A DNA stretch of 64,000 bases from NCBI GenBank assembly GCA_016703525.1, contig JADJBW010000003.1, positions 19,849-83,848 on the forward strand, written 5' to 3'. Positions 5,630-44,624 of the stretch are shown one piece after another (the stretch's first letter is position 1; each line of letters opens with the position of its first letter). Under the pieces are notes generated by a model that worked only from the letters and a program-made list of their open reading frames with translations, was not told the DNA's origin and ran no database searches. Both the position numbers and the translations under genes were made by a program. Origin of the DNA: Actinomycetota bacterium (lineage in GTDB: Bacteria; Actinomycetota; Acidimicrobiia; Acidimicrobiales; Microtrichaceae).

Positions 5630-6532
5630 TCACGCGAGGCCGGCGAGCTCGCGGCCCAGGTAGAGGATCGACACGGCGATCAACAGCACCCCGGCGAGAC
5701 GCCGCATCGTGTGTTCCGATGCTCCGACGGTCAGGTGTGCACCCACGCGTGCGCCGGGAACGATGCCGATGGCGAGCGGCGCGGCGAACTCCCAGTCGAT
5801 GTGACCGAGGCGGATGTGCGTGATCAACGCGGTCACCGACATCACCGCCACAGCGGCGAGTGACGTCGCGATCGCCTCCTTCACCTGCAGCCGAACGCCG
5901 AGCACGAGTCCGGGGGTGAGGACCAGGCCCCCGCCGATGCCGAGGAGGCCGGCGAGAAACCCGGCGATCACGCCGAGCGCCACCAGGATCGCCACGCCGT
6001 CGCGAACCTCCCGCTCGACGGGTTCGGCGGTCGGTTCGACGGTCGGTTCGGCCTCGGCCCCGGAGGCGATCGCCGATGGGATCGCTGATGGGATCGCTGA
6101 GGGAGCCGCCGATGGGATCGGGCGCTGCTGAGCGTCTCGCACGAGCGTGCCGCCGCTCCACAGCACGAGCACCGCAGTGACGACCATGAGCCACCGCGCA
6201 TCGACCTGCCCCGCGACCCATGCGCCGATGGCCGCGAAGGCGACCCCGCTTCCGCCGCAGGTCGCCGCCACGCGCCAGTTGACGTAGCCCTCGCGGGCGT
6301 ACCGAAGCGTGCCGGTGAGGGCCCCCGGAAGAATCGCGGGAACCGTGGAGCCGACGGCGTGGATCGGTGTCGCCCCGAGGAATCGGATCACCGGCGTGGT
6401 GATGATCGCTCCGCCGACGCCGAGAATCGCGGCGAGGACGCCGGAGCCGAATCCGGCGACCAGAACGATCGCCGTTGTCCATGACCACTCCACGGGCACA
6501 AGTTTGGCGCGCGGCAGGTAAAGATCCGGCAC
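5630..6532 (-). CDS. sulfite exporter TauE/SafE family membrane protein
   Basis: two repeated 4-TM halves with GxGGG motifs (LGVGGAI, LGIGGGLVLTP); central loop contains PSAI x3 repeat. Confidence 0.85.
   Translation of the reverse strand: MPDLYLPRAKLVPVEWSWTTAIVLVAGFGSGVLAAILGVGGAIITTPVIRFLGATPIHAVGSTVPAILPGALTGTLRYAREGYVNWRVAATCGGSGVAFAAIGAWVAGQVDARWLMVVTAVLVLWSGGTLVRDAQQRPIPSAAPSAIPSAIPSAIASGAEAEPTVEPTAEPVEREVRDGVAILVALGVIAGFLAGLLGIGGGLVLTPGLVLGVRLQVKEAIATSLAAVAVMSVTALITHIRLGHIDWEFAAPLAIGIVPGARVGAHLTVGASEHTMRRLAGVLLIAVSILYLGRELAGLA
6062..6122. repeat. 12-bp tandem repeat x ~3.5 (GATGGGATCGCT) inside TauE gene, encoding (AIPS)n
   Basis: read directly; in-frame simple-sequence repeat in cytoplasmic loop. 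Confidence 0.8.
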
Positions 6533-6622
6533 AGCGTCGATTGCCCTATGAGGTCGAGTTGTACGGTCCCTCCGGCCATGCTCGAAGGTCGATGCAGGTC
6601 ACATGAACAAGGAGTGCTCCCG

Positions 6623-7169
6623 ATGGACACCTTCGCCGGGCTGCCGGCCCACCCGCTTCTGGTCCACGCACCCGTGGTGCTCGTGCCGGTCGTCGCGTTG
6701 CTCGTGATCTTGATGATCGTCCGCCCGCAGTGGCTGGAGCGTTTCGGATGGCTCGCGGTCGGCCTGGCCGGCCTCGCTCTCGTGACGGGTGTGCTTGCCG
6801 AGAACTCGGGAGAGGCGCTCGAGGAGGCCGTGGAGGATTCGGCGTCGCGGACGCTGCTCCACGCGCACGAGGAGGCAGGGCGAGAAGGTCCCGCTGCTGG
6901 CCTTCCTTCTGTTCGCCAGCTTGGTTGCGTGGGTGGGTTGGCAGTGGTGGTCGCGGCGCAAGGCTGCCGCGGGCGAGGCGTCGGGGTCCGGCTCGGCCGG
7001 GTCGTCCAGCGCCCGGTCGCCGATCTCGATGGGTCTCGGCGCGATCGCGCTCGTGGTGTCGCTCGCGGCGACGTGGTTCGTGTACGACGCCGGTCACACC
7101 GGGGCCAAGACCGCGTGGGACGACGTGAAGGTCACGAGCAGCGAGGGCGGGGGCGACGAGGGGCGTTAG
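6623..7169 (+). CDS. hypothetical membrane protein (DUF2231-like), apparent frameshift near 6885
   Basis: AAGGAG RBS 9 bp upstream of ATG 6623; N-terminal TM (…LLVHAPVVLVPVVALLVILM…) continues in another frame (…KVPLLAFLLFASLVAWVGW…TWFVYDAGHTG…) ending 7169. Confidence 0.55.
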
Positions 7170-7185
7170 GAGCCCGCGCGCCATA

Positions 7186-7260
7186 CACGAACGCGAACTG
7201 GGCCGATTCACCAACCCGAGCGGTTGGTAGATCGGCCCAGTTCGCGTGGGTTCGTGGGTT
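7186..7260. terminator. stem-loop between convergent genes; REP-like palindrome CGAACTGGGCCGAT / ATCGGCCCAGTTCG
   Basis: perfect 14-bp inverted repeat (7195-7208 / 7232-7245) with nested CCAACC..GGTTGG palindrome in loop; located between stops at 7169(+) and 7269(-). Confidence 0.5.
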
Positions 7261-7268
7261 CGACGGGG

Positions 7269-8870
7269 CTACTTGCCGACTCGGCCGACGAGCTGGCGGG
7301 CGATCACCTTGATGCACAGCGTCTCGTCTGCGCCCTCGAAGATCGACAGCACGCGGGCGTCGACGTAGTAGCGGCTCACGTCGTACTCCTCGGCGTAGCC
7401 CATGCCGCCGTGGATCTGCATCGCCTCGCGGGTGACCCATTCGGCCGCCTTGCAGACGTATGCCTTGATGAGCGATGCCTCAAGGGCGCCCTCGCCTCGG
7501 GCCATCATCCGGGCGACCTCGTAGGCGAACTGCCGGGCGGCCTGGATCAGCACGGCCATGCGGGCGAGCTTCACCTGGGTGAGCTGGTACTCCGAGATGT
7601 TCGCCCCGAAGACCTTCCGGTTCTCGGCGTAGTCGCGGGCGGCCTCGTACGCCGCCTGCATCACACCGATCGCCCGGGCGGCCGTCTGCAGGCGCCCGTT
7701 CTCGAACCCGGCCATCTGGTAGTAGAAGCCGCGGCCCTTGCCGCCGTCGAGCCCGATCAGGTTCTCGGCCGGTACGAACCAGTCCTCGATCGCGACCTCG
7801 TAGGAGTGCATGCCGCGGTAGCCGATCGTGTCGATCGCGCGGCCCTCCATCTTTCCGGCGCCCGGGCCGTCCATGTCGGCCTGGCGGATGTCGAATCCGT
7901 GTCCTTCGCCGCGCAGCTTGGGCACGATGAACATCGACAGGCCCCGGTGGCCCGCGTTGCGGTCGGGGTCGGTGCGGGCGAGCAGCATCAACACGTCGGC
8001 GCGGGCGCCGAACGGGCACCACGTCTTCACGCCGTTGATCACGTAGCCGTCGATGCCGTCCACGGTCGACGGCGTCGCGGTCACCTTCACGCCGGCGACG
8101 TCGGAGCCGTAGTCGGGCTCGGTGACGGCCACGGCGTTCATCACCTCGGCGGTCGCCAGCAGCGGCAGCCACTGCTGCTTCTGCTCCTCGGTGCCGCCGG
8201 CTTCGAGCGCACGGGCGAGGATCTCGGGTCGGGTGATGAGCGAGCCGCCGGCGCCGAGCGAGCCGCGGGACAGCTCTTCGGTGGCGACGACCATGGCGAT
8301 GTAGTCGGCGTCGGTGCCCGACGCGAACCCGCCGTATTCCTCGGCGATCGACAGGCCGAACGCGCCCATCTCGGCGAGGCCGGTGATGATGGCCTCCGGG
8401 ATGTCGGCGTTGTGGCGGTGGATGTGCTCGGCGATCGGCTTCAGCTTCTCGTCCGCGAACCGGCGGAACGTGTCCTGCACCATCTCGAAGTCGTCGCCGA
8501 GGTGCCGGGGCCCCTCGGTCGTGGCGAGGGGGGCGAGGAAGGCGGCGTCGCGGAACCGGGCGACGTATTCGCGGGTGGAATCGAGCGCGTGGGCGTCGAC
8601 GCCCCAGTCGGCTTCCCGCCCGAACACCTTGCCGGCGAGGTCGGCCACGGCATCCGCCACGAATGCGTGCGTGAGGCGCTCCTCGAGCTCGCCCTTCGCG
8701 CCGTAGCCGAGCATCGACTGCGCGGTTTGCAGGGCGGCCTTGGCGTGGGCGACGTCGTACGCGAGGACCTGATGGTCGTCGAGCCCGATGTCGGCGAGGC
8801 GTCCGATCGCCGCGTCGACGACGGCGGAGGCGGAGGCGATGACGGTTTCGGCGGCGGTGAGATCGGACAT
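7269..8870 (-). CDS. fadE: acyl-CoA dehydrogenase (FadE-like, long form)
   Basis: ACAD N/M/C domains (…YGSDVAGVKVTA…, …GGMGYAEEYDVSRYYVDARVLSIFEG…); start at MSDLTAAE (ATG complement 8868-8870). Confidence 0.85.
   Translation of the reverse strand: MSDLTAAETVIASASAVVDAAIGRLADIGLDDHQVLAYDVAHAKAALQTAQSMLGYGAKGELEERLTHAFVADAVADLAGKVFGREADWGVDAHALDSTREYVARFRDAAFLAPLATTEGPRHLGDDFEMVQDTFRRFADEKLKPIAEHIHRHNADIPEAIITGLAEMGAFGLSIAEEYGGFASGTDADYIAMVVATEELSRGSLGAGGSLITRPEILARALEAGGTEEQKQQWLPLLATAEVMNAVAVTEPDYGSDVAGVKVTATPSTVDGIDGYVINGVKTWCPFGARADVLMLLARTDPDRNAGHRGLSMFIVPKLRGEGHGFDIRQADMDGPGAGKMEGRAIDTIGYRGMHSYEVAIEDWFVPAENLIGLDGGKGRGFYYQMAGFENGRLQTAARAIGVMQAAYEAARDYAENRKVFGANISEYQLTQVKLARMAVLIQAARQFAYEVARMMARGEGALEASLIKAYVCKAAEWVTREAMQIHGGMGYAEEYDVSRYYVDARVLSIFEGADETLCIKVIARQLVGRVGK

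Positions 8871-29037: not shown

Positions 29038-29059
<22 letters not shown>
27807..29059 (-). CDS. sufS: cysteine desulfurase SufS, apparent frameshift at ~28327 (G-run GGGG->GGG)
   Basis: class V aminotransferase/SufS motifs (…[10 protein letters not shown]…, [14 protein letters not shown]); C-terminal third (…[18 protein letters not shown]…HHCAKP…) in +1 frame. Confidence 0.85.
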
Positions 29060-29807
<748 letters not shown>

Positions 29808-29878
29808 GGGCGCGAGTGTATTTCGCCTACGCGCGTAGTGGAAATAGCGGTGAGCGCCGGTCGAACGCGGTCGAGCGC

Positions 29879-30178: not shown

Positions 30179-30201
30179 TCCGTGCTCCTCATTGATCCGA
30201 A

Positions 30202-30894: not shown

Positions 30895-30949
30895 GCCTCC
30901 GGTGCAGTGATGCGGTCGTAGCGAGCCGGTGGCCGGCGGTTCAGCCGGC

Positions 30950-33052: not shown

Positions 33053-33148
33053 TGCACTGATTTGGCGATTCGACCTCGGCCCGCCGGGCCGCCGCCGATT
33101 CCCCGTCGCGACGGCCTTTCGACACCGCGTCGCTCGTACACTCGGCGC

Positions 33149-33574
33149 ATGTCCGACGAGAAGCTGAAGCCCGTTGCCGCAACCGACGAGGAGTGGCGAT
33201 CGCGGCTCACCCCCGAGCAGTTCCAGGTGTTGCGCGAGGCAGGAACCGAACGTGCCTTCGCCGGAGCGCTCGTCGACACCGAAGACGACGGCATGTACCG
33301 CTGTGCAGCGTGCGGCCAGCCGCTGTTCGACTCCTCGACCAAGTTCCACAGCGGTTCGGGATGGCCGAGCTTCACCTCGGCGATCGGCGACGATTCGGTG
33401 TCGCTGGTGCGAGACGTCTCGCACGGCATGGTCCGCACCGAGGTCCGCTGCGGTCGGTGCGACTCGCACCTGGGCCACGTGTTCGACGACGGCCCGCGAG
33501 CCGCGGGCGGGCTGCGGTATTGCATGAACAGCGTCGCCCTCGACCTCGACGCCGAGGCGCAGTCCGGCGACTGA
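33149..33574 (+). CDS. msrB: peptide-methionine (R)-S-oxide reductase MsrB
   Basis: two CxxC zinc motifs (CAACGQPLF, CGRCDSHLGHVF), catalytic RYCMNS. Confidence 0.9.
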   Translation: MSDEKLKPVAATDEEWRSRLTPEQFQVLREAGTERAFAGALVDTEDDGMYRCAACGQPLFDSSTKFHSGSGWPSFTSAIGDDSVSLVRDVSHGMVRTEVRCGRCDSHLGHVFDDGPRAAGGLRYCMNSVALDLDAEAQSGD

Positions 33575-33638
33575 AGGCCGCTTCCGGGCGCGCGGCGGGG
33601 CGGCGCGGCCCCGGCCCGCGGTTCGGCTCCGGTTCGGT

Positions 33639-33682
33639 AATCCAGGCTCAGCGGTGCATATGTGCACCGCTGAGCATGGATT
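33639..33682. terminator. near-perfect 20-bp inverted repeat with 4-nt loop (AATCCAGGCTCAGCGGTGCA tatg TGCACCGCTGAGCATGGATT)
   Basis: 19/20 complementary arms read directly; 65 bp downstream of msrB stop and immediately abutting the poly-G block. Confidence 0.45.
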
Positions 33683-34520
<838 letters not shown>

Positions 34521-34559
34521 CGCCCGCACGATGGTTACCAGCCGCGGGCGACCCATTGT

Positions 34560-35156
34560 CGAGGCCGGGCCGCTCGGCGGCGATGGTCGTGTCGGTGCCG
34601 TGCCCTGGCATCACGATGGTGTCGGCATCGAGGGACGCGAACAGCCGTCGCTCGATCGACTCGATGATCGTCGCGAAGTCGCCCCCGGGGAACTTCGTGG
34701 CACCGGGCCCTCCGGGGAACAGGGTGTCGCCGCTGAACAGCAGCGGCTTGCCTTCGACCCGGAAGCACATGGACCCCGGCGTGTGCCCCGGCGTGTGGAT
34801 CGTGCGGAGGCGGAGGCGACCCACCTCGATCACGGTGTCGTGCTCGATCACCTCGTCGTAGGCGGGCAGGTCCGCCGCGTCTTCGGCCGTTACGCCCACC
34901 GAGTAGCCGGCGTCGCGCATCTCGGGGATCGCCTGGATGTGGTCCCAGTGACCGTGCGCGTCCCGAGCACGCGGCGCACGCCGAGTCGGCTCGCGAGCGC
35001 GAGGAGCTTGTCGTGCTCGTTCGCCGCGTCGATCAGCACGGCCTCGCCGGTGGCCCGGCAGCGCAGCACGAACACGTTGTTGTCGACGGGCCCGACGACG
35101 AGGCGGTGGATCTCCAGGTCGGTGTCGGCATGGTGCAGCGTGTCCATGCCGGTCAT
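34560..35156 (-). CDS. MBL-fold hydrolase (hydroxyacylglutathione hydrolase-like), frameshift at ~34940 and 3' end running into G-rich block
   Basis: expected THxHxDH motif is split by the frameshift near 34940 (translates as …LGTRTVTGTTS… in the ORF track); downstream motifs read …TPGHTPGSMCF…GDTLFPGGPG…MPGHG…; 5' 70 aa in a different frame; no stop before 34520. Confidence 0.65.
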
Positions 35157-35189
35157 CCTCGCGCCGTGGGCGCCCTCTAGGCTCGGCGC

Positions 35190-35663
35190 ATGAACGCGAA
35201 CCTCTACAACCTCCTGCTGGCGATCCACATCATCGCCGTCGCGCTGTGGCTGGGCGCCAACTTCTCGATGGGCGTTGCCGCGAACCGGTCGGTGGGCGCG
35301 TCGAACGAGATCAACGCGTGGTGGGCGGGCGTCCAGGGCCTGATGGGCCGCACCATGAAGAACGCGGCGTTCGCGCTGCTGTTGCTCACCGGCATCGCCA
35401 TGGTTCTCGGGAGCAACGAGTCGATGAAGTTCAGCGCCCCGTTCGTGTCGATCGGGTTCCTGGTGGTGATCGTCGGTGGTGCGCTCGGCGGCATGGTGTT
35501 CGCTCCGGGGGCCCGCAAGGCCGCCGAGTCGTTCCAGTCGGGCGACGCGGCGGGCGGCAAGGCGCAGGTCGACAAGATGGGCATGATCGGCATGGCCGAG
35601 TCGCTGGCCGTGGTCGTCACGATCCTGTTCATGGTGTTCAAGTGGGGCGGTCTCGGCGGCTGA
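35190..35663 (+). CDS. hypothetical membrane protein (4 TM)
   Basis: clean 157-aa ORF with hydrophobic helices. Confidence 0.55.
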   Translation: MNANLYNLLLAIHIIAVALWLGANFSMGVAANRSVGASNEINAWWAGVQGLMGRTMKNAAFALLLLTGIAMVLGSNESMKFSAPFVSIGFLVVIVGGALGGMVFAPGARKAAESFQSGDAAGGKAQVDKMGMIGMAESLAVVVTILFMVFKWGGLGG

Positions 35664-35862
35664 GCCTCGCGGGATCAGCCGGGAAGGCGTTCGGGAAGCC
35701 CGAGCAGCGCGCGGATGTCGGCGCCGCTGAGGCGGGTGCCGATGAGCCCTGTTCTGTGGCCGGTACCTGACGATGCGTCGCAACTCGTCGCCGCAAGGTC
35801 GAGCCCCACGGGTCGTGATCGGGCCGTCGCCGGTGGCGCGCGCGGCGCGGTCCGGGCGCTGG

Positions 35863-37803
35863 TCACCCGTGTGCGCAGGGAGTCCGGACCCGGTCGATCA
35901 GCCGGTTGTCGCGCAGCGCCGGGCGAAGTCCGGCCAGCGGATGCGAGATCGACCACCGAACCAGGTGGTCGCTGTCGATGGAGCGCAGGCCGCGCAGCGC
36001 AGCGGTGTTGGCGCTCCAGGTGTTGACGAGTCGCTTGCGGGTGCGCGGGTTGGGTTCGACCAGGCGCATGTAGCGCTGCAGCAGGTGATCGGCCTCGCCC
36101 GAGGCGGCAGCCTGTGCGTCTCGTTCGGCCATGGCATCGTCCAATTCGGGCGACTTGTGCCCGTGGCTGTCCCACAAGTCGATGACGTCGCGGTACCGCT
36201 CGGTCTCGATGATGTGGTGCAGCGGGTCGGTCGGCGGAACGGGGCAGGCGCGACGCCGTGTCGCGGCGGGGGCGGGCGGCGCGAGGCGCCGGGCCGGCGG
36301 CGCGGGGCGGGTGGCGGGTGGTTGTCGGGGGCGGCGGCCCCGGCGGGTCGACGGGCGGACGCGGCACCTGGCGATGTCGCGAAGATGGCGATCGCTCGGG
36401 GCTGGCACTGGCGATGACGGCCCAGCCGAGTGGTCGGGCCGTGCCTCCGGGTCGCCGGCCGCAGCGGGGGGCGGCTCTGGCGGTTCCACGGTGGGCGCAT
36501 CGGGAAGGTTGAGGGTGATTCGGTCGTATCGGTCGAGGTCCTCGGTCGACGGCGTTGGCAGCGTGATCCGCAACTGGAACAACTTGTCGAGGAACAGCGA
36601 CCCCAGGGTTCGGCCTGGCTCGCCCAACGGAGCGTGGGCGTCGCGATGCCGGTGCTCGAACGCCTGGGAGATCCAGCGCGCATCGGCCGCGACGACGAAC
36701 ACCAACGGCTGGGCCCGCTTGTCGCGGCGCTTGGGTTGGCCCAGCGGTTCTGCGGACGGCTTCCAGGTCGGGAGCCCCGACGCCTCGGGGGCGCGAAGAA
36801 CCGTCTGCACCGCCTCGAGCAGGTCGACCACCTGGTCGGCGTCGCAGCGGTCGAGGTCGTCGATGACCCACAGAAGCGGGCCGCGCAGCTGCTGGCGCAG
36901 CCACCGGGCGTGTTCGACGATTTCGTCCATGGGGTTGGCGTCGCGGCGTTGCAGCAGCCTGGCGCCGAGCGGCGAATACCACAGGATGATCCGTGCGATC
37001 ACGAACCACGCCGCAAGCATCATGGCAGCGATCGCCGCGACGGCCTCGACCACGGTCCGAGCGGTGGTGATCGAATCGAGGGCTCGCTCGTTGGCCGGTG
37101 TGCCGGTGGAGGCGCGGGCCCCCGGGGGGGGGGGGCCCGGGGGCCCGGGGGGGGGGGGGGGGGGGGGGGGGGCGCGAGCGGCGGTCGCCGCCGCCCGCAG
37201 GGGGCAGCGGTCGCGTCGTCGCCGGCGGGGTGCGGGGGCGCTGAGGCGCCAGCCGGCGGCGAAGACCGCGAGCGCGACGGCCGCCACGAGCGCGATCGCC
37301 GCGAGCGTCGCCCAGGTCGATCGGCCGTGGCGGACCCGCGCCCAGGCTTCTCGCACCCGGAACCACCAACGCCGCGGTCCTCTGGGGGTCTGGTCGATCG
37401 CCACCTCGCGGAGCCACGACACGAGTGACCACCAGGTGGGTCCCACCTTGGCGCGGCGCCACGCGTCGTACGCAGCGTTGGGGATCACCCACTCCTGGCG
37501 TTCCTGTTGTGGTTCCGCCGCTGAATCGCCCGGTTTGGGCGACTCTCCGGCGAGGTCTTGACACACGAGATTGACGAGTGTCGTCTTGCCCGAACCCCAG
37601 GGAGCGTCCAGGACGAGCATGAAGTCGTTGTTGGTCGGCGCGGTGCCGGTGCCGACGCGACGGGTGAGCGTGTCGAGCGTGGTCGCGATCCACCCGGCCA
37701 GCGGCGTGCGCGAGCGGGTCGCGTGCGCAGGCTGGTCATCGGCCGTGGCGGCGGGCCGACGCTGACGAGCGGCGGCGAAACCCCGGGCGCGCTGGCCGGC
37801 CAT
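35863..37803 (-). CDS. KAP-family P-loop NTPase (membrane-inserted)
   Basis: Walker A in context FMLVLDAPWGSGKTTLVNLV, two TM helices inserted into the NTPase domain (WATLAAIALVAAVALAVFAAGW; AIAAMMLAAWFVIARIILWY), Walker B-like LLWVIDDLDRCD, C-terminal RLVNTWS region; contains poly-Pro from poly-C/G tract. Confidence 0.75.
   Translation of the reverse strand: MAGQRARGFAAARQRRPAATADDQPAHATRSRTPLAGWIATTLDTLTRRVGTGTAPTNNDFMLVLDAPWGSGKTTLVNLVCQDLAGESPKPGDSAAEPQQERQEWVIPNAAYDAWRRAKVGPTWWSLVSWLREVAIDQTPRGPRRWWFRVREAWARVRHGRSTWATLAAIALVAAVALAVFAAGWRLSAPAPRRRRRDRCPLRAAATAARAPPPPPPPPGPPGPPPPGARASTGTPANERALDSITTARTVVEAVAAIAAMMLAAWFVIARIILWYSPLGARLLQRRDANPMDEIVEHARWLRQQLRGPLLWVIDDLDRCDADQVVDLLEAVQTVLRAPEASGLPTWKPSAEPLGQPKRRDKRAQPLVFVVAADARWISQAFEHRHRDAHAPLGEPGRTLGSLFLDKLFQLRITLPTPSTEDLDRYDRITLNLPDAPTVEPPEPPPAAAGDPEARPDHSAGPSSPVPAPSDRHLRDIARCRVRPSTRRGRRPRQPPATRPAPPARRLAPPAPAATRRRACPVPPTDPLHHIIETERYRDVIDLWDSHGHKSPELDDAMAERDAQAAASGEADHLLQRYMRLVEPNPRTRKRLVNTWSANTAALRGLRSIDSDHLVRWSISHPLAGLRPALRDNRLIDRVRTPCAHG
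37117..37173. repeat. homopolymer tract CCC(G)12CCC(G)5CCC(G)26 inside KAP NTPase gene
   Basis: read directly; translates (minus strand) to PPPPPPPPGPPGPPPPG. Confidence 0.85.
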
Positions 37804-37993
37804 CGGGCCAGTCGTCGGGCCACGTGAGGGGGTCGGTGCGCGGGGGAACGGCCGCCGGTCGACCCCGTCGGCGAGAGCGTGACCGTCCGATCCATCCCCC
37901 CAGACCGCCAGGGTGCCGCCCTGGACCGGGCCGGCCCGGTGCCGTTCGGCGGGGCGCCACGCCACACTCGTGACCGGGGCCCCGAATTCGAGA

Positions 37994-39665
37994 CTATCGG
38001 GCCGCCCCCGCGCCCGGTAGGCCGGTGTTCCATACCCGCACCGTCTTGTCGTTGCTGCCGGACACGATGTGGGTGCCGTCACCGTTGAACCCGACGGACA
38101 ACACCGAGTCGGTGTGGCCGTGGAGACGGTGGAGTTGCTTGCCGCTTTCGGCGTCCCACACCCGCACCGGCCGCGCCGCCGGACACGATCGGGTGCCGTC
38201 AGCTGAACCCGACGGACAACACCGAGCGGTGCGGCCGTCGAGACGGTGGAGTTGTGCCGGTGTCGGCGTCCCATACCCGCACCGTCCACGTCGCTGCCGG
38301 ACACGATGCGGGTGCCGCACGTTGTCCCCACCGACCACACCAGCCGGTGTGGCCGTCGAGTGGCGGAGTTGCGGCCGGTGTCGGCATCCCACACCCGCAC
38401 CGCCGTCGCCGCTGCCGGACACGATGGGGTGCCGTCACCGTTGAACCCGACCGACCACACCCGGCCGGTGTGGCCGTCGAGGGTGGACCCGGCGGCCGGG
38501 GGGCGTCCCACACCCGCACGCGTTCTCGCCGCCGGACACGATGCGGGTGCCGTCACCGCTGAACCCGACCGACCACACCAGCCGGTGTGGCCGTCGAGTG
38601 GCGGAGCTGGGGCCGTGTCGGCGTCCACACCGCACCGTCCGATCGTCGCCGCCCGACACGATGCGGGTGCCGTCACCGTTGTACCCGACCGACCACACCC
38701 AGCCGGTGTGGCCGTCGAGTCGGTGGGCCACTTGCCGGCGTCCCACACCCGCACCGTCCCGTCGTCGCTGCCGGACACGATGCGGGTGCCGTCACCACTG
38801 CACCCGACCGACCACACCGAGCCGGTGTGGCCGTCGAGTGGCGGAGCTGCCGGCCGGTGTCGGCGTCCCATACCCGCACCGTCCGCCGCCGCTGCCGGAC
38901 AGGATGCGGGTGCCGTCACGGTTGAACCCGACCGACACCACCGAGCCGGTGTGGCCGTCGAGTGGCGGAGTTGTTGCCGGTGCGGCGTCCCACACCCGCA
39001 CCGTCCATCGTCGCTGCCGGACACGATGCGGGTGCCGTCACCGCCGCATCCGACCGACACCACCCGGCGGTGTGGCCGTCGAGTGGGTGGAGCTGCTTGC
39101 CGGTGTGGGCGTCCCACACCCGCACCTTCCTCGTCGCTGCCGGACACGATGCGGGTGCCGTCACCGCTGTATCCGACCGACAACACCGCGCCGGTGTGGC
39201 CGTCGAGTGGGTGGAGTCGCTGCCGGTGTCGGCATCCCACACCCGCACTGCCCAATCGTCGCCGCCGGACACGATGCGGGTGCCGTCACGGCTGCACCCG
39301 ACCGACCGCCACCCGGCCGGTGTGGCCGTCGAGGCGGTGGAGTTGTTCGCCGGTGTCGGCGTCCCACACCCGCACCGTCCAATCGTCGCTGCCCGACGCG
39401 ATGCGGGTGCCGTCCGTTGAACCCCACCGAGCGCACCCAGCCGGTGTGGCCGTCGAGCGTGGTCGCGACGTGCTGCAGCGGCGCATCCGCGTTGCGGATC
39501 AGGATTCGCCCATCGGAGTGGCCGGACGCGAGCATGGCGAAGGGACCCGTCCCGCCATCGCTCCACGCCACACACAGGGGAACGCCCGCGGCGAACGGCA
39601 CGGCGTCGAGCGGGCTGTCGTCGAGCGGTGTCGCCATCGGTGACGGGCGTGTCCCTTCTTCCGCC
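37994..39665 (-). CDS. WD40-repeat protein (~12-14 blades) encoded by near-identical tandem units; multiple frame disruptions
   Basis: recurrent LDGHTGxVxSVGFNGDGTRIVSGSDDxTVRVWDAxTG units across all three frames; first blade (…AVPFAAGVPLCVAWSDGG…ASGHSDGRILIRN…) and last blade (…VRVWNTGLPGAGAAR*) intact. Confidence 0.7.
38020..39400. repeat. tandem DNA repeat array, ~120-126-bp unit x ~12 (WD40 coding repeats with high internal identity)
   Basis: motif GTCCCACACCCGCACCG recurs at ~38028, 38146, 38263, 38383, 38500, 38622, 38741, 38864, 38985, 39110, 39232, 39358. Confidence 0.85.
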
Positions 39666-39717
39666 ATCGAGCGCCAGCGCCGACCGTAGCGCGGCCACGG
39701 CGGCGGGGGCCGGGCCG

Positions 39718-40331
39718 TCAGGCGATGGGCGACAGCACCTCGAAGCCCAGGGCCAGCGCGACGGGGATGTGGGTGGGGTCGAGCGTGGCGCACCGAACCG
39801 ACGCGGCAGGCGGTCGGCGGCGGCCATGACGAGGGCGTCGACGGTGCGCAGCGGGTCTGCCGGCCGAGTTCGGCGGCGCGGTCCAGGCAGCGCGGCGTCG
39901 ACCGGCACGACCGCGATGCACTCCCAGTCGTCGCGCACGCACGCCCGAAGGTGAGCGGCGCGGTCGGGGTCGTCGCCGATGCGGTCGACGACCATCAGCG
40001 CCTCGGTCAACGCGCTGGCGCTGGCGCACCACTCCGCATCGGCGGCCATCGCCTCCACCAGCACCGGTCGGAACGGCACATCGAGGTAGCGGGCCAACAA
40101 CGCGGGGGCGCGCGCGGTCGATCCATGATCGTCATCGGCCGCGGACGTCGCGCAGCATCTGGTCGACCGAAGGCCGGCCCACACCGGCATGGTGAACGTG
40201 GGTTGCGGTCGGTCGGGTCGGCGCGGTGGCACCACCAGGCCGCGAGCGACCAGGTCGTCGAGGGTCATTGGCCGGCGGGCGCCTCGATCGGGCCGGATCT
40301 GCGCGACCGGCGTGCCGTCCGGGTCAACCAC
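39718..40331 (-). CDS. hypothetical protein upstream of WD40 gene (possible frameshift near 39790)
   Basis: GTG-initiated ORF (…LDVPFRPVLVEAMAADAEWCASASALTEALMVVDRIGDDPDRAAHLRACVRDDWECIAVVPV…); C-terminus (…LDPTHIPVALALGFEVLSPIA*) in another frame. Confidence 0.35.
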
Positions 40332-40535
40332 GATGGTTCGCCCTGCGCCGCACGCTGGACGAGTCCGCGGCCCGGCTCACGCCCCAGCGTTCGGTCACGA
40401 ATCCTGCTCGACCATGCGTACGCGAGCGAACCAACTGGCTGGCGCGGCGCGGGATCGTTGGCAACTGCCGGTCCACCCGCTGCACCGGCTTGACCCGGCA
40501 CGCCACCGGCCAACTCCACAACGAAGCTGACACCC

Positions 40536-41651
40536 ATGAACTTTGCGTTTTCGGAAGAACAGGAAGAGCTGCGCAAGGTCGTTCGGGATTTCCTGAACGC
40601 CAAGAGCAGCGAGGCGACCGTGCGTGAGCTCATGGAGACCGACGACGGCTACGACGCCGCGGTGTGGTCCCAGATGGGCGAGCAGATGGGCCTGCAGGGC
40701 CTGATCATCCCCGAGGAGTTCGGTGGTTCGGGCTACAGCTACGTCGAGCTGATCGTGGTGCTCGAGGAGATGGGCCGCCGCCTGCTGTGCGCCCCCTACT
40801 TCTCGACCGTGGCGCTCGCCGCCAACACGCTGATGCACTCCGGTGACGATGCGGCCAAGGCGGCGTACCTGCCGGGCATCGCCTCGGGCGAGACGATCGC
40901 GACGCTCGCGTTCACCGAGGCCAACGGCCGGTGGGACGAGGCCGGCATCACCGTGGAGGCCTCGGGTGCCGGCGACTCGTGGACGATCTCGGGCGAGAAG
41001 ATGTACGTGCTCGACGGCCACATCGCGTCGCTCATCCTGGTGGCGGCCCGCACCGCCGGCGGCGTGTCGCTGTTCGCTGTCGACGGCTCGGCCGCGGGCG
41101 TGACCCGCGAGCTCCTCTCGACGATGGACCAGACGCGCAAGCAGGCCCGCGTCACGTTCGACTCGACCCCGGCCACGCTCATCGGTGCCGAGGGCGGTGG
41201 TTGGGACGTGCTCAGCCGGGTGCTCGACCTCGCCGCGGTCGCCCTCGCCGCCGAGCAGGTCGGCGGCGCGCAGGAGTGCCTGGAGATGGCCGTGCAGTAC
41301 GCCAAGGATCGCGTGCAGTTCGGCCGGCCGATCGGCTCGTTCCAGGCGATCAAGCACAAGTGCGCCGACATGCTGCTCGAGGTCGAGTCGGCCAAGTCGG
41401 CGGCGTACTACGCGGGCTGGTGCGCGGCGGAGCTGAACGACGAGCTGCCGTCGGTGGCGTGCCTCGCCAAGAGCTACTGCTCGGAGGCGTACTTCCACAC
41501 CACCGCCGAGAACATCCAGATCCACGGCGGCATCGGTTTCACCTGGGAGCACCCCGCGCACCTGTACTTCAAGCGTGCGAAGAGCTCGGAGCTGCTGTTC
41601 GGCGACCCGACCTATCACCGCGAGCTGCTGGCGCAGCGAATCGGTCTGTGA
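40536..41651 (+). CDS. acyl-CoA dehydrogenase family protein
   Basis: ACAD domains (…FGGSGYSYVEL…, …QIHGGIGFTWEHPAHLYFKRAK…). Confidence 0.85.
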   Translation: MNFAFSEEQEELRKVVRDFLNAKSSEATVRELMETDDGYDAAVWSQMGEQMGLQGLIIPEEFGGSGYSYVELIVVLEEMGRRLLCAPYFSTVALAANTLMHSGDDAAKAAYLPGIASGETIATLAFTEANGRWDEAGITVEASGAGDSWTISGEKMYVLDGHIASLILVAARTAGGVSLFAVDGSAAGVTRELLSTMDQTRKQARVTFDSTPATLIGAEGGGWDVLSRVLDLAAVALAAEQVGGAQECLEMAVQYAKDRVQFGRPIGSFQAIKHKCADMLLEVESAKSAAYYAGWCAAELNDELPSVACLAKSYCSEAYFHTTAENIQIHGGIGFTWEHPAHLYFKRAKSSELLFGDPTYHRELLAQRIGL

Positions 41652-41724
41652 CGCACGCGGGGCGTGCCGGCCGACCCGGAAGGGCGGTCGGTTCGCCCCG
41701 TTGCGCGTCCGGGTTCGGCCGCGC

Positions 41725-42978
41725 CTACGCCGCGTTGCTGCAGCCCGGCGGGTCCGACGGTCGCGGCGGGTCGCTCGGCTCGCTCGGGTCTTCGAGCTGA
41801 CCAAGGTGCACCTCGGCCCGCCGCTCGTCACCGGCGAACGACCAGGCGGCCAACGCGGCAGCGAAGCCCATGACGGCCACCCAGAGCCACATGACCATCG
41901 CCGAGTCGCGGCGATACAGGATCGGCGACACGAGCGCGCACACCATCGACCCGACCGCGTACGTGGCCTCGTACGCGCCCTGACCGGCCCCGGTCAGCCC
42001 GACCGGCACGGTTCCGCCCGCGACGGCGGACTGCCCCGCCGTGTAGACCACCGAGAACAACAGCGCGACCGCGGCGCCCAGCGCGGCCACCCAGCCGAGG
42101 TGTCGCGTCAGCCCGAACCCCGCGATGAACGGGCTTGCGGCCACGAGCGCTACGGCCCCCGCCCGCACCGGCCCGACGTGGTCGACGAGGCGCCCGGCGA
42201 ACGGCATGGCGATCACCAGCGGGACGAACAGGGCGATCATCACCAACGTCAGCTCGTTGTCGGTGCCGCCGAGGTCCTTGAGGAACCGCGACGCGACGGC
42301 GTCGAACGTGCCGATCATCGCGGCGAATCCGAGCCCGATCACGATGCCCGCCCGGGCGAGCGGCAGGCGGAACACGCGCCGCATCTCCGCGCCGGAGGCA
42401 TGGTGCTCGCAGATGTCGGGCTCGGGCACGAGCGTCGCGATCGGGCCGACGGCTGCCAACAGGATCGCCAGCACCAGGAACGGCGTGTTCGGCGAATCGA
42501 AGGCCTGCTCGAGTTGCTTCGCGATCGGCAGGCCCAGCAGGAACCCGCCGATGTCGGCCGCGCCGGCCATCGAGATCGCCTTGCCCGGGTTGTGCGGGTC
42601 TTGCGCGAGGATCGCCCGCCGGGCCGACGGGATGAACGTGCCCGAGCCGAGCCCCACGAGCATGCGGGCCACGGCGAATTCCCACAGCGTCGACCCGAGC
42701 CAGAACCAGATCATGCCGGCCGCCGCGGTCGCGAGCCCGAACCAGAGCAGGCGGCGGGTGTGGCCCCGGTCGGCGAAGCGGGCGAGCCCGAGTTGTCCGA
42801 CGAGCGCGGCGGGGAACGCCGACGCGGCGATGAGCCCGAGCCCGGCCTCGTTGAATCCGAAGATCGGCGGGAACCGGTACTTGTCCTGCAGGTCGGCCAA
42901 CAGGCCGAACACGGCTCCGTAGCCCATGGCTTCGACGCAGATCGCGAGGAGCAGGGACGCGTTGCGGCGGGCAGCCAT
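41725..42978 (-). CDS. MFS transporter
   Basis: 12 predicted TM, MFS motif region (…FADRGHTRRLLW…GLGSG…). Confidence 0.8.
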   Translation of the reverse strand: MAARRNASLLLAICVEAMGYGAVFGLLADLQDKYRFPPIFGFNEAGLGLIAASAFPAALVGQLGLARFADRGHTRRLLWFGLATAAAGMIWFWLGSTLWEFAVARMLVGLGSGTFIPSARRAILAQDPHNPGKAISMAGAADIGGFLLGLPIAKQLEQAFDSPNTPFLVLAILLAAVGPIATLVPEPDICEHHASGAEMRRVFRLPLARAGIVIGLGFAAMIGTFDAVASRFLKDLGGTDNELTLVMIALFVPLVIAMPFAGRLVDHVGPVRAGAVALVAASPFIAGFGLTRHLGWVAALGAAVALLFSVVYTAGQSAVAGGTVPVGLTGAGQGAYEATYAVGSMVCALVSPILYRRDSAMVMWLWVAVMGFAAALAAWSFAGDERRAEVHLGQLEDPSEPSDPPRPSDPPGCSNAA

Positions 42979-43029
42979 TGGGCGAACACACTATCCCGAC
43001 GGGCTCCGCACGCTCGGTAGGGTGGCTGG

Positions 43030-43488
43030 GTGATTTGGCTGTTCACCGCGCTGAGCGTGGTCGTGTCGTTTGTGATCGCCGCGGTGACGGTCGGCTGGGT
43101 CGTCGAGCGTCAAGCCTCCCGGGCGCGGGTCGCGGTGTACGACCTGGACGCCGCGGTGCACTACGTGGCGGATCGGCTGTCGGAGGCGACCACCGCCGAG
43201 CTCAGCTACGACGACGTGGCCGACGTGCTCGGATGGCACCTCGACGAACTACGCGAACGCGGCGTCGCGTCGTTCCGCTCCGATGAGGCGCCGGGCGACG
43301 CGCTGGTCGTGGTCGACGAGGACGAGCCGGTCGCCCGCATCTTGGCGCGGATCGACGGAACCGACCGGGCGAACACCCTGACCGACGACCGTGTCGTCGA
43401 GATCCTGGCGACCCACGACGGGTACCTGCGCTCGATCGGGGCGGTCGGGCCCGCCGTGGGTGGGGATCCCGCCACGCCCGAGCCGTAG
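43030..43488 (+). CDS. hypothetical protein with N-terminal TM anchor
   Basis: clean 152-aa ORF. Confidence 0.45.
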   Translation: MIWLFTALSVVVSFVIAAVTVGWVVERQASRARVAVYDLDAAVHYVADRLSEATTAELSYDDVADVLGWHLDELRERGVASFRSDEAPGDALVVVDEDEPVARILARIDGTDRANTLTDDRVVEILATHDGYLRSIGAVGPAVGGDPATPEP

Positions 43489-43497
43489 GATGCCCCC

Positions 43498-43710
43498 ATG
43501 GATCGCCCATCGAAGTTCGAGCACAACCGATTTGTCGGCGACAAGCGGACCCAGGTCGTCTACGACGTCGACGAGCTCTCCGACGAGCATGCGCCTCTGA
43601 TCGACGAACTGCTCGCCGCCGAGACCTTCCTGTGCTTCGGCCCCGACACGCTCGCGGAGGCTCGCAACCGCGGGTACCGGCTCTTCCGGGCGCAGCGCGC
43701 CGCCTCCTGA
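43498..43710 (+). CDS. small hypothetical protein (70 aa)
   Basis: clean ORF MDRPSKFEHNRFVGDKRTQVVYDVDELSDEHAPLIDELLAAETFLCFGPD…. Confidence 0.4.
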   Translation: MDRPSKFEHNRFVGDKRTQVVYDVDELSDEHAPLIDELLAAETFLCFGPDTLAEARNRGYRLFRAQRAAS

Positions 43711-43726
43711 GCACGGGCGACACGCC

Positions 43727-44519
43727 GTGACCGGTCCCCCGTCGATGGATTACCGGTTCGAGTCGGCGGGTCTCGTGCTGTCGGGTCATCTCGCCGAACC
43801 CCCGGCGGGCCCGGCCCAGGTGCCCGGTCTGGTGCTGTGCCACGGGTTCCCGGTGCGGGGTCGTGAATCGCCGGCGTCGGGCCAGTCGTTCCCCGAACTC
43901 GCGGATCGCATCGCGACCGAGATGGGCTGGCTCGTGCTGACCATGAACTTCCGCGGGTGCGGCCATGCGGAGGGCGACTTCTCGATGCGCGGGTGGCTCG
44001 ACGACATCGGCGCCGCCGTCATGCATCTGCGCGACCTGGGCGTGGCCGACGTCTGGCTCGCCGGGTACGGCACCGGCGGAGCGATGTGTCTGTGCGCCGC
44101 GGCGGGACAGCTCGATCCGCGGCGTCGCGGCGATGGCGGCGCCGGCCGACTTCGACGACTGGGCGAGAAACCCTCGCCGCCTGCTGCAACACGCCCGCCA
44201 GGTGGGCGTGATCCGCCACGAGTGGTTCCCCCGCAGCTTCGAGGAATGGGCCGACGAGTTCCGTGCGCACACGGCGGTCGCCGCGGCCACCGACGTTGCC
44301 CCGAGGCCGCTGCTCGTGCTCCACGGCGACACCGACGATCTGGTGCCCAACTTCGACGCCCGCGTGATCGCCGATGCGCACGGCGACGCCGAACTCCGGA
44401 TCATCTCGGGCGGCGGGCACGAGCTTCGCCACGACCCGCGCGCCGTGGCGGTGCTGCTCGGCTGGCTCGCCCGCCAGCACGACGGCGACCCGCTCGTTCG
44501 GTACCTGCCGCCGGCCTGA
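43727..44519 (+). CDS. alpha/beta hydrolase (dienelactone hydrolase/peptidase S9-like), frameshift near 44105
   Basis: N-terminal half (…GLVLCHGFPV…TMNFRGCGHAEGDF…WLAGYGTGGAM) and C-terminal half (…LLVLHGDTDDLVP…ISGGGHELRHD…) in different frames. Confidence 0.65.
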
Positions 44520-44624
44520 GCCGAGGCGAAGTGCCCACTCCCGCCGCGGGCGCCGGGGGAGTAGCTTTTGCAGGTCTGACGACGCGCCGCGCTCGCTGGC
44601 ACACCGTCCGCTGGGATCCGCCTG

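What the first reader, a model, noticed from the sequence alone, without database searches (positions are those of the whole stretch)
35863..40331. Three-gene minus-strand cluster: hypothetical protein + WD40 protein built from ~12 near-identical tandem units + membrane-inserted KAP-family P-loop NTPase
The central gene is a WD40 propeller whose blades are encoded by ~120-126-bp DNA units of very high mutual identity. They differ mainly at a few positions (x in GHTGxVxSV and DxTVRVWDAxTGxx). The downstream gene is a KAP NTPase with Walker A LDAPWGSGKTT and TM helices inserted in the NTPase domain. This architecture — a highly internally conserved repeat sensor next to a STAND-like NTPase — is the hallmark of NLR-type receptors. 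Those are best known from fungal NWD/HET genes with concerted-evolving WD repeats and hypervariable ligand-contact positions, and from bacterial NLR-like antiphage STAND proteins. A separate WD40 gene immediately upstream of a KAP NTPase is not an arrangement I recognise as described. A conflict-system (defence or programmed cell death) or signalling role is an inference.
Basis: partly seen in the sequence, partly recalled or inferred. Interest (0 to 1): 0.8.

Follow-up and report, generated by a model that had tools for sequence, protein, structure and literature searches.

The report
Garbled WD40–KAP NTPase sensor gene
The region holds a real but ordinary-for-its-family gene cassette, a WD40 repeat propeller joined to a membrane-anchored KAP ATPase of a family linked to anti-phage defence.

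Summary
Partly confirmed.

**What is there**
- A 12-unit WD40 tandem array lies at 37994-39451 on the minus strand.
- A KAP-family P-loop NTPase follows it, with two hydrophobic helices between Walker A and Walker B.

**What is wrong with the gene model**
- The window sequence is corrupted. About 49 small indels fall in the 1.46-kb array alone, and the frame hops in nearly every unit.
- G/C runs replace normal sequence.
- Frameshifts also occur inside sufC/sufS-like genes that are otherwise 99-100% identical to relatives.
- Two near-identical metagenome contigs (L001, L002) carry the same locus intact.
- The "hypothetical protein" is a chimera of a broken VapB/VapC (Phd/PIN) toxin-antitoxin pair plus out-of-frame WD40 sequence.
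- The KAP gene ends at 35675, not 35863.
- WD40 and KAP are fused in L001 and in remote homologues, and overlapping ORFs in L002.

**Context**
- The ~4-kb cassette is an accessory insertion between vapC and a small membrane-protein gene. It is absent from 84 related Acidimicrobiia loci.
- WD40-KAP fusions are common: 33 of 122 closest family representatives. Other members carry TIR, SIR2, caspase, trypsin, LRR or TPR N-termini.
- The closest solved fold is RdrA of the RADAR defence system.

An NLR-like conflict role is plausible but untested. It is a new member of a known kind, of modest interest.

The parts
40135..40398 (-). VapB-type antitoxin (Phd/YefM) gene, broken into three frames in the window. 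It is a backbone neighbour, not part of the cassette.
   Evidence: Peptides VTERWGVS, DGTPVAQIRPD and MLRDVRGR lie in different frames. The intact 93-aa orthologue in L002 matches PF02604 and TIGR01552. It is present next to the acyl-CoA dehydrogenase gene in 51 of 80 related loci.
39721..40109 (-). VapC-type PIN toxin gene, frameshifted at least twice in the window. It is a backbone neighbour.
   Evidence: tblastn with the L002 PIN protein gives two frames, 40109-39792 and 39798-39724. L002 has an intact 136-aa protein matching PF01850.
39452..39667 (-). Start of the WD40 protein (MAEEGTRPSPMATPLDD...) and a divergent first blade (...MLASGHSDGRILIRNADAPLQHVATTLD).
   Evidence: It is read in one frame in the window and is collinear with the intact L002 WD40 ORF 6524..7735.
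37994..39451 (-). Twelve tandem WD40 repeat units. The consensus is GHTGxVxSVGFxGDGTRIVSGSDDxTVRVWDAxTGxQLxxLD; an intact unit is 126 bp or 42 aa. The window copy carries 43 deletions and 6 insertions.
   Evidence: Tandem Repeats Finder; unit list and alignment; indel count and corrected translation. L002 has 6 perfect 42-aa units and L001 at least 8. Pfam WD40 scores 228 bits on the L002 protein.
37741..37993 (-). Degenerate last blade (LEFGAPVTSVAWRP...TLAVWG) and the linker (PLTWPDDWPDGR) joining the propeller to the KAP module. It is frameshifted in the window.
   Evidence: The linker is in frame with KAP in L001 (protein P0001). It is offset by an 8-nt indel in L002, which gives overlapping ORFs.
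35675..37740 (-). KAP-family P-loop NTPase.
- N-terminal motif DDQPAHA: 37720-37740
- Walker A: 37579-37596
- TM1: 37255-37311
- Low-complexity inter-TM loop: 37054-37254, with a corrupted C-run at 37111-37230
- TM2: 36997-37053
- Walker B VIDDLDRC: 36844-36870
- Helical C-terminal domain running to the stop at 35675
- Frame broken at about 36160-36434 and 35740-35950

Best explanation
**What the locus is (shown)**
- In its true form the locus is a single ~4-kb accessory cassette, window ~35664-39720 on the minus strand.
- It sits in one Acidimicrobiia lineage, inserted between the vapC (PIN) gene and a small membrane-protein gene.
- It encodes an N-terminal WD40 beta-propeller of highly repetitive 42-aa units: 12 here, plus a divergent first blade and a degenerate last blade.
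- The propeller is joined to a KAP-family P-loop NTPase, either as one polypeptide or as overlapping ORFs.
- The NTPase core is interrupted by a two-helix membrane hairpin. The loop between the helices is Pro/Thr/Ala-rich and varies between strains.

**Why the frames are broken (strongly inferred)**
- The broken frames, the apparent three-gene structure and the G/C homopolymer runs in this window are consensus or sequencing errors, not biology.

**How it likely works (inferred from family context only)**
- The protein acts as a membrane-tethered, NLR-like sensor-switch.
- Variable residues of the propeller bind a trigger, such as an invader protein or a guarded host protein.
- Binding licenses nucleotide-dependent rearrangement or oligomerisation of the KAP module at the membrane.
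- The output is membrane-level growth arrest or exclusion, as for PifA, because WD40-type members carry no separate enzymatic effector.
For: **Anatomy**
- The repeat array, the KAP match, the Walker motifs and the transmembrane insertion are established.

**Intact relatives**
- L002 carries the same locus: Phd, PIN, an intact 403-aa WD40 protein and KAP.
- It is 96% identical to the window over 38734-46124 and 92.6% over 34493-38719.
- L001 is 98% identical over the 25438-33635 flank. Its last WD repeat, linker and KAP form one ORF, P0001.

**Error origin of the frameshifts**
- Sixty-nine window-specific indel columns occur where L001 and L002 agree with each other. They are clustered in patches, with 600-700-bp stretches free of indels between them.
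- A normal 70%-GC gene of L001 appears in the window as a progressive decay into a poly-C/G run.
- Frameshifts sit inside the sufC-like, sufS-like, Lactamase_B and hydrolase genes. These stay 99-100% identical in protein on both sides of the shift for sufC/sufS, and 95-100% for the other two.

**Accessory cassette**
- Neither KAP nor WD40 is found in 80 related genome loci or in 4 closer contigs. L088 and L089 are empty sites.

**Family context**
- 235 representative proteins match at E<=1e-30, with a median N-terminal extension of 326 aa.
- WD40 is fused in 33 of 122. Others carry TIR, SIR2, caspase, trypsin+NB-ARC, LRR or TPR.
- Remote homologues have no conserved neighbour genes.
- KAP NTPase fusions have been shown experimentally to be antiphage (bioRxiv 10.1101/2025.10.07.681051).
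- PifA, a KAP member, causes membrane lesions (cited in PMC13001434).

**Repeat variation**
- Variation between repeats is concentrated at positions 5, 7, 25 and 36.
- In L002 the differences at the nine most variable codons are 58 non-synonymous against 0 synonymous. Elsewhere they are 28 against 30.
Against: - No read data were available, so sequencing error versus real decay cannot be proven.
- The one-base deletions are not mainly in homopolymers (41 of 81 are in runs of length 1), and they correlate only weakly with GC (rho 0.17). No specific platform signature was identified.
- No PADLOC, NCBIfam or Pfam defence-system model matches beyond the P-loop.
- The insertion slot holds metabolic and glycosyltransferase genes in other genomes, so it is not a recognisable defence island.
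- No effector domain is present.
- The codon test is partly circular, because the variable codons were chosen by amino-acid entropy.
- Repeat numbers in L001 and L002 may be collapsed by short-read assembly.
- Fused versus split remains unresolved within this lineage.
Confidence: 0.55

Rival explanations
1. The locus is a genuine pseudogene. In this strain the WD40-KAP cassette and its vapBC neighbours have decayed through many real small deletions and no longer function.
For: Indels are far denser here than in the flanking DNA. Accessory conflict genes are often lost. Deletions outnumber insertions 43 to 6 in the array, which fits the known deletional bias of bacterial pseudogenes.
Against: - Indels come in patches separated by 600-700-bp stretches free of indels and with only a few substitutions per 100 bp. 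They are not spread along the genes.
- The ratio of indel columns to substitutions is about 69:91, far above natural decay.
- Normal sequence is replaced by implausible poly-G/C runs: 112 consecutive positions that are 85% G.
- Isolated frameshifts also hit sufC/sufS-like genes with 99-100% identical protein on both sides. Real loss of those would be unexpected.
Confidence: 0.12
2. The cassette is intact in reality but is not a conflict system. It is a membrane-associated signalling or scaffolding protein, like the eukaryotic KAP protein Kidins220/ARMS or actinobacterial WD40 signalling proteins such as PkwA. It would organise a membrane complex in a nucleotide-dependent way.
For: - KAP NTPases were first proposed to regulate assembly of membrane-associated complexes (Aravind et al. 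2004, as summarised in PMC13001434).
- There is no effector domain and no match to defence-system models.
- Family members with BTAD/Trans_reg_C N-termini exist.
- The insertion slot elsewhere holds ordinary metabolic genes.
Against: - Distribution is patchy and restricted to one lineage.
- Sister members carry TIR, SIR2, caspase and trypsin N-termini typical of immune or cell-death systems.
- Repeat number and contact positions vary between close strains.
- The nearest solved fold is a defence ATPase.
- KAP fusions have been shown to be antiphage.
Confidence: 0.28
3. One reading: three separate genes form one functional unit, namely a hypothetical protein, a WD40 protein and a KAP NTPase.
For: All lie on the minus strand and are closely spaced. 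In L002 the order Phd-PIN-WD40-KAP is co-directional and could be co-transcribed.
Against: - The 'hypothetical protein' ORF is a frameshift chimera.
- Phd-PIN occurs next to the acyl-CoA dehydrogenase gene in about 50 of 80 related loci without WD40-KAP. Empty sites exist.
- WD40 and KAP are one polypeptide in L001 and in 33 of 122 relatives.
Confidence: 0.05

Closest known systems
KAP family P-loop NTPases (Pfam PF07693; founding members Kidins220/ARMS and PifA; Aravind, Iyer, Leipe & Koonin 2004)
   Same: The HMM match is above the gathering threshold. The Walker A and Walker B motifs are present, with transmembrane helices inserted between them. An N-terminal protein-interaction repeat domain precedes the NTPase, as the ankyrin repeats do in Kidins220.
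   Different: The repeat domain is a WD40 propeller rather than ankyrin. There are two transmembrane helices rather than four. The lineage is actinobacterial (Acidimicrobiia). No member of this subfamily has been characterised.
RdrA, the ATPase of the RADAR anti-phage system (PDB 8fnu, 8fnt)
   Different: Sequence identity is 13-18%, and Foldseek does not find the match significant (E 0.89). RdrA is soluble and works with the deaminase RdrB. Here there is no RdrB neighbour, the NTPase has a membrane hairpin, and a WD40 domain is attached.
Experimentally tested KAP NTPase fusion defence proteins (EF_KAP and metagenomic relatives; bioRxiv 10.1101/2025.10.07.681051), PifA and QatA
   Same: These are proteins in which a KAP NTPase, sometimes with a transmembrane helix inside the domain, is fused to a variable module. 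Their activity depends on Walker B. PifA, QatA and PDC-S20 give weak PADLOC hits.
   Different: In those proteins the variable region is C-terminal and of unknown fold. The hits here cover only about 25-35 residues around the P-loop for the window lineage. There are no QatBCD partner genes. Nothing has been tested in Actinomycetota.
Fungal NLRs with highly conserved WD40 repeats (HET-E, HET-D, NWD family) and bacterial STAND/Avs receptors
   Same: They share a repeat array with high internal identity. Variation is concentrated at a few positions per repeat. Repeat number differs between close strains. A P-loop NTPase switch is attached.
   Different: There the NTPase is NACHT or NB-ARC (STAND), the repeats are C-terminal and an N-terminal effector is present. 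Here the NTPase is KAP, the repeats are N-terminal, no effector domain is present and the protein is membrane-anchored.
Prokaryotic Highly-Repetitive WD40 proteins (Hu et al. 2017, PMC5587647)
   Same: Internal amino-acid identity is 0.80, against that paper's cut-off of 0.7. That paper also reports diversity at predicted top-face hotspot positions.
   Different: That catalogue does not mention KAP or NTPase partners (0 occurrences).
[quoted passage not shown]
   Same: Two transmembrane helices sit inside the P-loop domain. A repeat 'arm' senses a phage protein. The output is at the membrane.
   Different: It belongs to a different family, YobI (PF20693). The window lineage and its close relatives P0001 and P0002 gave no YobI hit. 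Its sensor is an alpha-solenoid, not WD40.

Membership tests
KAP family P-loop NTPase (PF07693) | Profile match above the curated gathering score | tested here: met
   The window translation 35863-37998 scores 67.9 bits against a cut-off of 20, E=1.2e-18. Orthologue P0001 scores 64.4 bits. All 122 scanned relatives match.
KAP family P-loop NTPase (PF07693) | Walker A GxxGxGK[ST] and a Walker B acidic motif | tested here: met
   WGSGKTT lies at 37579-37596 and VIDDLDRC at 36844-36870. D-R-C is invariant across the family alignments.
KAP family P-loop NTPase (PF07693) | Transmembrane helices inserted within the NTPase domain, between Walker A and Walker B | tested here: met
   Two hydrophobic 19-mers score 2.2-2.6 on the Kyte-Doolittle scale between the motifs, in the window lineage and in 9 other members. 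The AlphaFold2 model has long helices at 217-241 and 296-332. Actual membrane insertion was not tested experimentally.
WD40 repeat beta-propeller (PF00400) | Multiple 40-44-aa GH...WD repeats in one reading frame | tested here: inconclusive
   In the window the twelve units are recognisable only after 49 indels are repaired. The orthologue in L002 is intact, with PF00400 at 228 bits and 6 repeats. The feature is met for the locus type, not for the window sequence as given.
Highly-Repetitive WD40 proteins (Hu et al. 2017) | Internal repeat identity of at least 0.7 | tested here: met
   Mean amino-acid identity is 0.80 for five L002 units, 0.80 for eleven corrected window units and 0.65 for L001. 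This used simple pairwise identity, not the authors' exact procedure.
STAND / NLR NTPases (NACHT, NB-ARC) | Profile match to a STAND NTPase domain above threshold | tested here: not met
Known anti-phage systems in PADLOC/NCBIfam (PifA, QatABCD, PDC-S20) | Full-length match to the system's protein model and presence of partner genes | tested here: not met
   PifA scores 30-31 bits over about 25 residues. The NCBIfam QatA model scores 18-21 bits against a cut-off of 600. PDC-S20 scores 25-29 bits. The neighbours are Phd, PIN, a small membrane protein and Lactamase_B, with no QatB/C/D.
YobI/Tmn family (PF20693) | Profile match to YobI-ATPase | tested here: not met
   No hit for the window translation, P0001 or P0002. 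Only the distant member P0139 gives 19.4 bits against 27.
VapBC type II toxin-antitoxin (neighbour, not part of the cassette) | An adjacent Phd/YefM-type antitoxin and a PIN toxin with overlapping stop and start | tested here: met
   In L002 the genes lie at 5755..6036 (PF02604, TIGR01552) and 6033..6443 (PF01850). In the window both are frameshifted.
Anti-phage defence function | Protection against phage, or infection-triggered arrest | not testable with these tools
   Only contextual evidence exists: accessory distribution, immune-type domains in sister proteins, and experimental data on other KAP fusions.

The most novel reading that the evidence does not exclude
The actinobacterial KAP subfamity found here has about 235 representative clusters at E<=1e-30. 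It may be an uncharacterised class of membrane-embedded, NLR-like immune receptors. In this reading the N-terminal slot is swapped among sensors (WD40, LRR, TPR) and effectors (TIR, SIR2, caspase, trypsin). The WD40 members would diversify by repeat gain and loss and by change at contact residues, as fungal HET-E/NWD receptors do, and would signal directly through the membrane hairpin.
Probability: 0.35. Interest if true: 0.6.

Novelty: new member of a known kind. Interest (0 to 1): 0.3.

Why it matters
**For this window:** it matters mostly as a warning. Roughly 33.6-40.5 kb of the window is unreliable sequence. Any gene model, repeat count or "hypervariable position" read from it directly would be wrong.

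**For biology:**
- WD40-KAP proteins add to growing evidence that KAP NTPases are a modular sensor-switch platform in prokaryotic conflict systems, alongside STAND/NLR proteins.
- The subfamily offers a testable case of a membrane-anchored receptor whose WD40 repeats vary between near-identical strains.
- None of this is unexpected given the 2004 description of the family and recent experimental work on KAP fusions.

Tried and rejected
- **KAP protein scan of genome contigs.** It found no relative, so no species-representative genome carries this lineage's gene.
- **Word-indexed search with the L002 WD40 protein.** It returned only generic WD40 proteins and no further alleles, so repeat-number polymorphism could not be extended beyond three loci.
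- **The 157-aa membrane protein (35190..35663) as a cassette component.** I first thought it belonged to the cassette, since it was absent from the 80 loci. I rejected this after finding homologues between Lactamase_B and PIN in four contigs that lack KAP.
- **A platform signature for the errors.** GC content correlates only weakly with indels (rho 0.17), and half of the one-base deletions are outside homopolymers. No technology could be named.
- **The insertion slot as a defence island.** I rejected this: other genomes hold amidase-like, ABC-transporter-like, glycosyltransferase or methyltransferase genes there.

Full report
**1. What is in the sequence**

The window is about 70% G+C. On the minus strand between about 38.0 and 39.5 kb, Tandem Repeats Finder reports an array of period 118. 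It has 11.8 copies, 83% matches, 6% indels and a score of 1737. Anchoring on the GGCCACAC (Gly-His-Thr) motif gives 12 units of 124, 126, 124, 121, 124, 119, 121, 117, 121, 118, 117 and about 126 bp.

A three-frame translation shows that the WD40 motifs (GHTGxVxSV..., DGTRIVSGSDD, TVRVWDA) hop among all three frames, often within a single unit. There is therefore no WD40 ORF in the sequence as given.

Downstream, the translation of 35863-37998 matches Pfam KAP_NTPase at 67.9 bits against a cut-off of 20. Its features are:
- Walker A WGSGKTT at 37579-37596
- two strongly hydrophobic 19-mers at 37255-37311 and 36997-37053
- VIDDLDRC at 36844-36870

**2. Intact relatives show what the locus really is**

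A protein search with the KAP translation found only 11 relatives. Two are close: P0001 at 75% identity and P0002 at 79%. Their contigs are syntenic with the window.
- L001 is 98.2% identical to the window over 25438-33635.
- L002 is 96.3% identical over 38734-46124 and 92.6% over 34493-38719.

The L002 gene order is as follows:
- acyl-CoA dehydrogenase
- Phd/YefM antitoxin, 93 aa
- PIN toxin, 136 aa
- an intact 403-aa WD40 protein
- KAP NTPase
- a 157-aa membrane protein
- Lactamase_B
- Band_7

The L002 WD40 protein has a divergent first blade, six perfect 42-aa repeats and a degenerate last blade. L001 has at least eight repeats before the contig ends. Its last repeat, a linker (PLTWPSDWPDGR...) and the KAP module form one ORF, P0001. 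L001 and L002 differ by an 8-nt indel in the linker. This makes the two parts fused in L001 and overlapping ORFs in L002.

- The 'hypothetical protein' ORF 38916..40331 is a chimera of frameshifted vapB, frameshifted vapC and out-of-frame WD40 DNA.
- The KAP gene continues past 35863 to the conserved C-terminus ...LLGLPERLPG*, ending at 35675 in another frame.
- WD40 and KAP are one module rather than two independent genes.

**3. The window sequence is corrupted here**

Relative to the closest intact units, the 1.46-kb array needs 43 deletions and 6 insertions. Indels against both relatives cluster in these zones:
- 35740-35950
- 36160-36434
- 37111-37230
- 37706-38000
- 38170-39415
- 39672-39890
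- 40111-40527

In a three-way alignment, 69 indel columns and 91 substitutions are specific to the window while L001 and L002 agree with each other. They lie in patches separated by 600-700-bp stretches with no indels. The patches coincide with zones where the two relatives themselves differ (Spearman rho 0.67, p=9e-6).

Two places look non-biological.
- In the inter-TM loop, an Ala/Pro/Thr-rich coding stretch is replaced by runs of C.
- At 33600-34560 the plus strand is 60% G, with near-pure poly-G runs. Aligned to L001, this region is a recognisable copy of an ordinary 141-aa gene that decays progressively into a homopolymer.

Outside the locus, isolated frameshifts interrupt four genes:

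| Gene | Approximate position |
|---|---|
| sufC-like ABC ATPase | 29410 |
| sufS-like aminotransferase | 28331 |
| Lactamase_B | 34960 |
| alpha/beta hydrolase | 44100 |

Protein identity to the relatives stays at 99-100% on both sides of the shift in the sufC-like and sufS-like genes, and at 95-100% in the other two.

Patchiness, an indel-to-substitution ratio near 1, homopolymer decay and breaks in near-identical housekeeping genes all argue for consensus or sequencing error. This could be a noisy long-read or mixed-strain assembly. I estimate about 0.8-0.85 for error against about 0.12 for real decay.

I could not name the technology. Half of the one-base deletions are outside homopolymers, and the GC correlation is weak. 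If the assembly is long-read based, the copy number of 12 may be more trustworthy than the short-read contigs' 6 and at least 9, even though base accuracy is poor. That point is inference.

**4. Genomic context**

Using the adjacent intact acyl-CoA dehydrogenase, I fetched 80 loci from Acidimicrobiia genomes at 76-84% protein identity. The backbone is conserved. Lactamase_B is found in 67 of them, and the Phd-PIN pair in about 50. None has KAP or WD40.

Homologues of the 157-aa membrane protein led to closer contigs.
- In L088 and L089 the PIN gene abuts the membrane-protein gene. These are empty sites, with a 48-bp spacer in L089.
- In L086 a glycosyltransferase cluster occupies the slot.

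The WD40-KAP cassette (about 4.06 kb, 35664-39720) is therefore a lineage-restricted insertion at a variable slot. The vapBC pair and the membrane protein are backbone genes. In other genomes the slot holds metabolic-type genes, so it is not a recognisable defence island.

**5. The protein family**

A full-library search with P0002 gave 1617 representatives at E<=1e-3, 1111 at E<=1e-10 and 235 at E<=1e-30. The Walker A motif lies a median of 326 residues from the N-terminus. All 122 scanned members match KAP_NTPase, and 19 plus 14 of them carry WD40 in the same polypeptide.

Ten non-WD40 members carry these N-terminal domains:
- TIR_2 (two members)
- LRR
- TPR
- Trypsin_2 plus NB-ARC
- Peptidase_C14
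- SIR2_2
- Clp_N
- BTAD with Trans_reg_C
- no recognisable domain (one member)

A conserved core runs through all of them:

D.PA..D.L.R..LA ... DGPWGxGKS ... two TM ... FIDDLDRC ... FVVAADG.WI ... EPGRPLGYLFLDKLFQL ... NPR..KRF

Hydropathy places two (sometimes four) transmembrane segments between Walker A and DDLDRC in every member checked.

Remote WD40-KAP homologues (L083-L085) share no conserved neighbour genes, so the module is self-contained.

PADLOC and NCBIfam give only P-loop-local hits to PifA, QatA and PDC-S20.

**6. The repeats**

After frame repair, the consensus is GHTGxVxSVGFxGDGTRIVSGSDDxTVRVWDAxTGxQLxxLD. Across 22 units from the three loci, Shannon entropy peaks at these positions:

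| Position | Entropy (bits) |
|---|---|
| 5 | 2.5 |
| 7 | 2.3 |
| 36 | 2.1 |
| 25 | 1.9 |
| 40 | 1.8 |
| 11-13 | 1.2-1.7 |
| 33 | 1.5 |

From general knowledge of WD40 structure, positions 5 and 7 lie at the start of strand A and position 25 in the B-C turn. These correspond to the top-face hotspots described by Wu et al. 2012, cited in PMC5587647. I did not test this on a model.

Further repeat statistics:
- DNA identity between L002 units averages 88%.
- Amino-acid identity averages 0.80. This places the protein in the 'Highly-Repetitive WD40' class of Hu et al. 2017, who also noted diversity at hotspot positions.
- In L002, differences at the nine most variable codons are 58 non-synonymous against 0 synonymous, compared with 28 against 30 elsewhere. 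This is suggestive but partly circular, because the codons were chosen by amino-acid entropy.

The edge units of the window array are orthologous to those of L002. The extra six units are internal. One first blade plus 12 units plus one last blade gives 14 blades, which could form two 7-blade propellers, against 8 blades in L002. This is inference.

**7. Mechanism**

Shown:
- the domain order WD40, then KAP with a membrane hairpin, then a helical C-terminal domain
- accessory distribution
- modular N-termini across the family

Inferred:
- The propeller binds a trigger.
- Binding controls the nucleotide-dependent state or oligomerisation of the KAP module at the membrane.
- Because WD40-type members have no enzymatic effector, the output is probably at the membrane itself.

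Precedents are PifA, a KAP member that causes membrane depolarisation and nucleotide leakage (PMC13001434), and the KAP fusion proteins shown to block phage in a Walker-B-dependent way (bioRxiv 10.1101/2025.10.07.681051). I put about 0.4 on a conflict or defence role and about 0.3 on a non-conflict signalling or scaffold role.

**8. Novelty and verdict**

A repeat domain joined to a KAP NTPase with transmembrane insertion is the founding architecture of the family: Kidins220/ARMS has ankyrin repeats plus KAP. WD40-KAP fusions are frequent in sequence databases, and highly repetitive prokaryotic WD40 arrays are catalogued.

I found no paper that describes WD40-KAP specifically. The search for 'KAP NTPase' plus 'WD40' returned two papers that hold both terms. 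The one listed mentions them in separate contexts.

I therefore file the biology as a new member of a known kind. In this window the finding is mainly a sequence-quality problem. Interest is 0.3.

Noticed in passing
window 33600-34560: The plus strand is 60% G (577 of 961 bases), with near-pure poly-G runs at 33683-33794 and 33971-34033. Aligned to L001 4561-5300, it is a copy of an ordinary 141-aa gene in which A/T bases are progressively replaced until only a homopolymer is left. L002 lacks this gene entirely. It looks like an assembly or polishing artefact, not biology.
   Followed up: partly
window ~28331, ~29410, ~34960, ~44100: Isolated frameshifts interrupt a sufS-like class-V aminotransferase, a sufC-like ABC ATPase, Lactamase_B and an alpha/beta hydrolase. 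The first two stay 99-100% identical in protein to L001/L002 on both sides of the shift, the other two 95-100%. This indicates a background indel error rate of roughly one per 3-4 kb across the window.
   Followed up: partly
window 39721-40398; loci L003-L082: The order acyl-CoA dehydrogenase, VapB (Phd/YefM), VapC (PIN), Lactamase_B is a conserved backbone in Acidimicrobiia. The toxin-antitoxin pair is present in about 50 of 80 loci, which is unusually stable for such a module.
   Followed up: partly
between vapC and Lactamase_B: window 35664-39720; L005, L007, L013, L017, L022, L033, L050, L086: This slot is a recurrent insertion site. In different genomes it holds unrelated cargo, judged mostly from ORF sequence rather than domain scans: amidase-like, ABC-transporter-like, hemolysin-III-like and methyltransferase-like genes. 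L086 has Pfam-annotated glycosyltransferase genes there. No integrase or flanking repeats were looked for.
   Followed up: no
window 35190-35663 (+): A 157-aa hydrophobic protein has no Pfam, NCBIfam or PADLOC match. It is conserved at 55-78% identity in Acidimicrobiales and Microthrixaceae contigs, next to Lactamase_B, in the four contexts examined (L086, L088-L090). It is intact in the window although it lies inside the error-rich zone.
   Followed up: partly
window 37054-37254; P0001 residues 242-300; P0002 residues 127-200: The loop between the two transmembrane helices of the KAP protein is a 70-85-aa Pro/Thr/Ala-rich low-complexity segment. It differs strongly between L001 and L002, whereas in more distant family members the two helices are only about 10-40 residues apart. 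If the hairpin spans the membrane, this loop would face outward. This possible second variable surface was not explored.
   Followed up: no
L084 6517-9028: Next to the distant KAP homologue P0003 lies a separate WD40 protein (447 aa), followed by an AAA_16/NPHP3_N/NACHT-like NTPase (392 aa) and a phage integrase. This is a split WD40 plus STAND-like pair on what looks like a mobile element.
   Followed up: no
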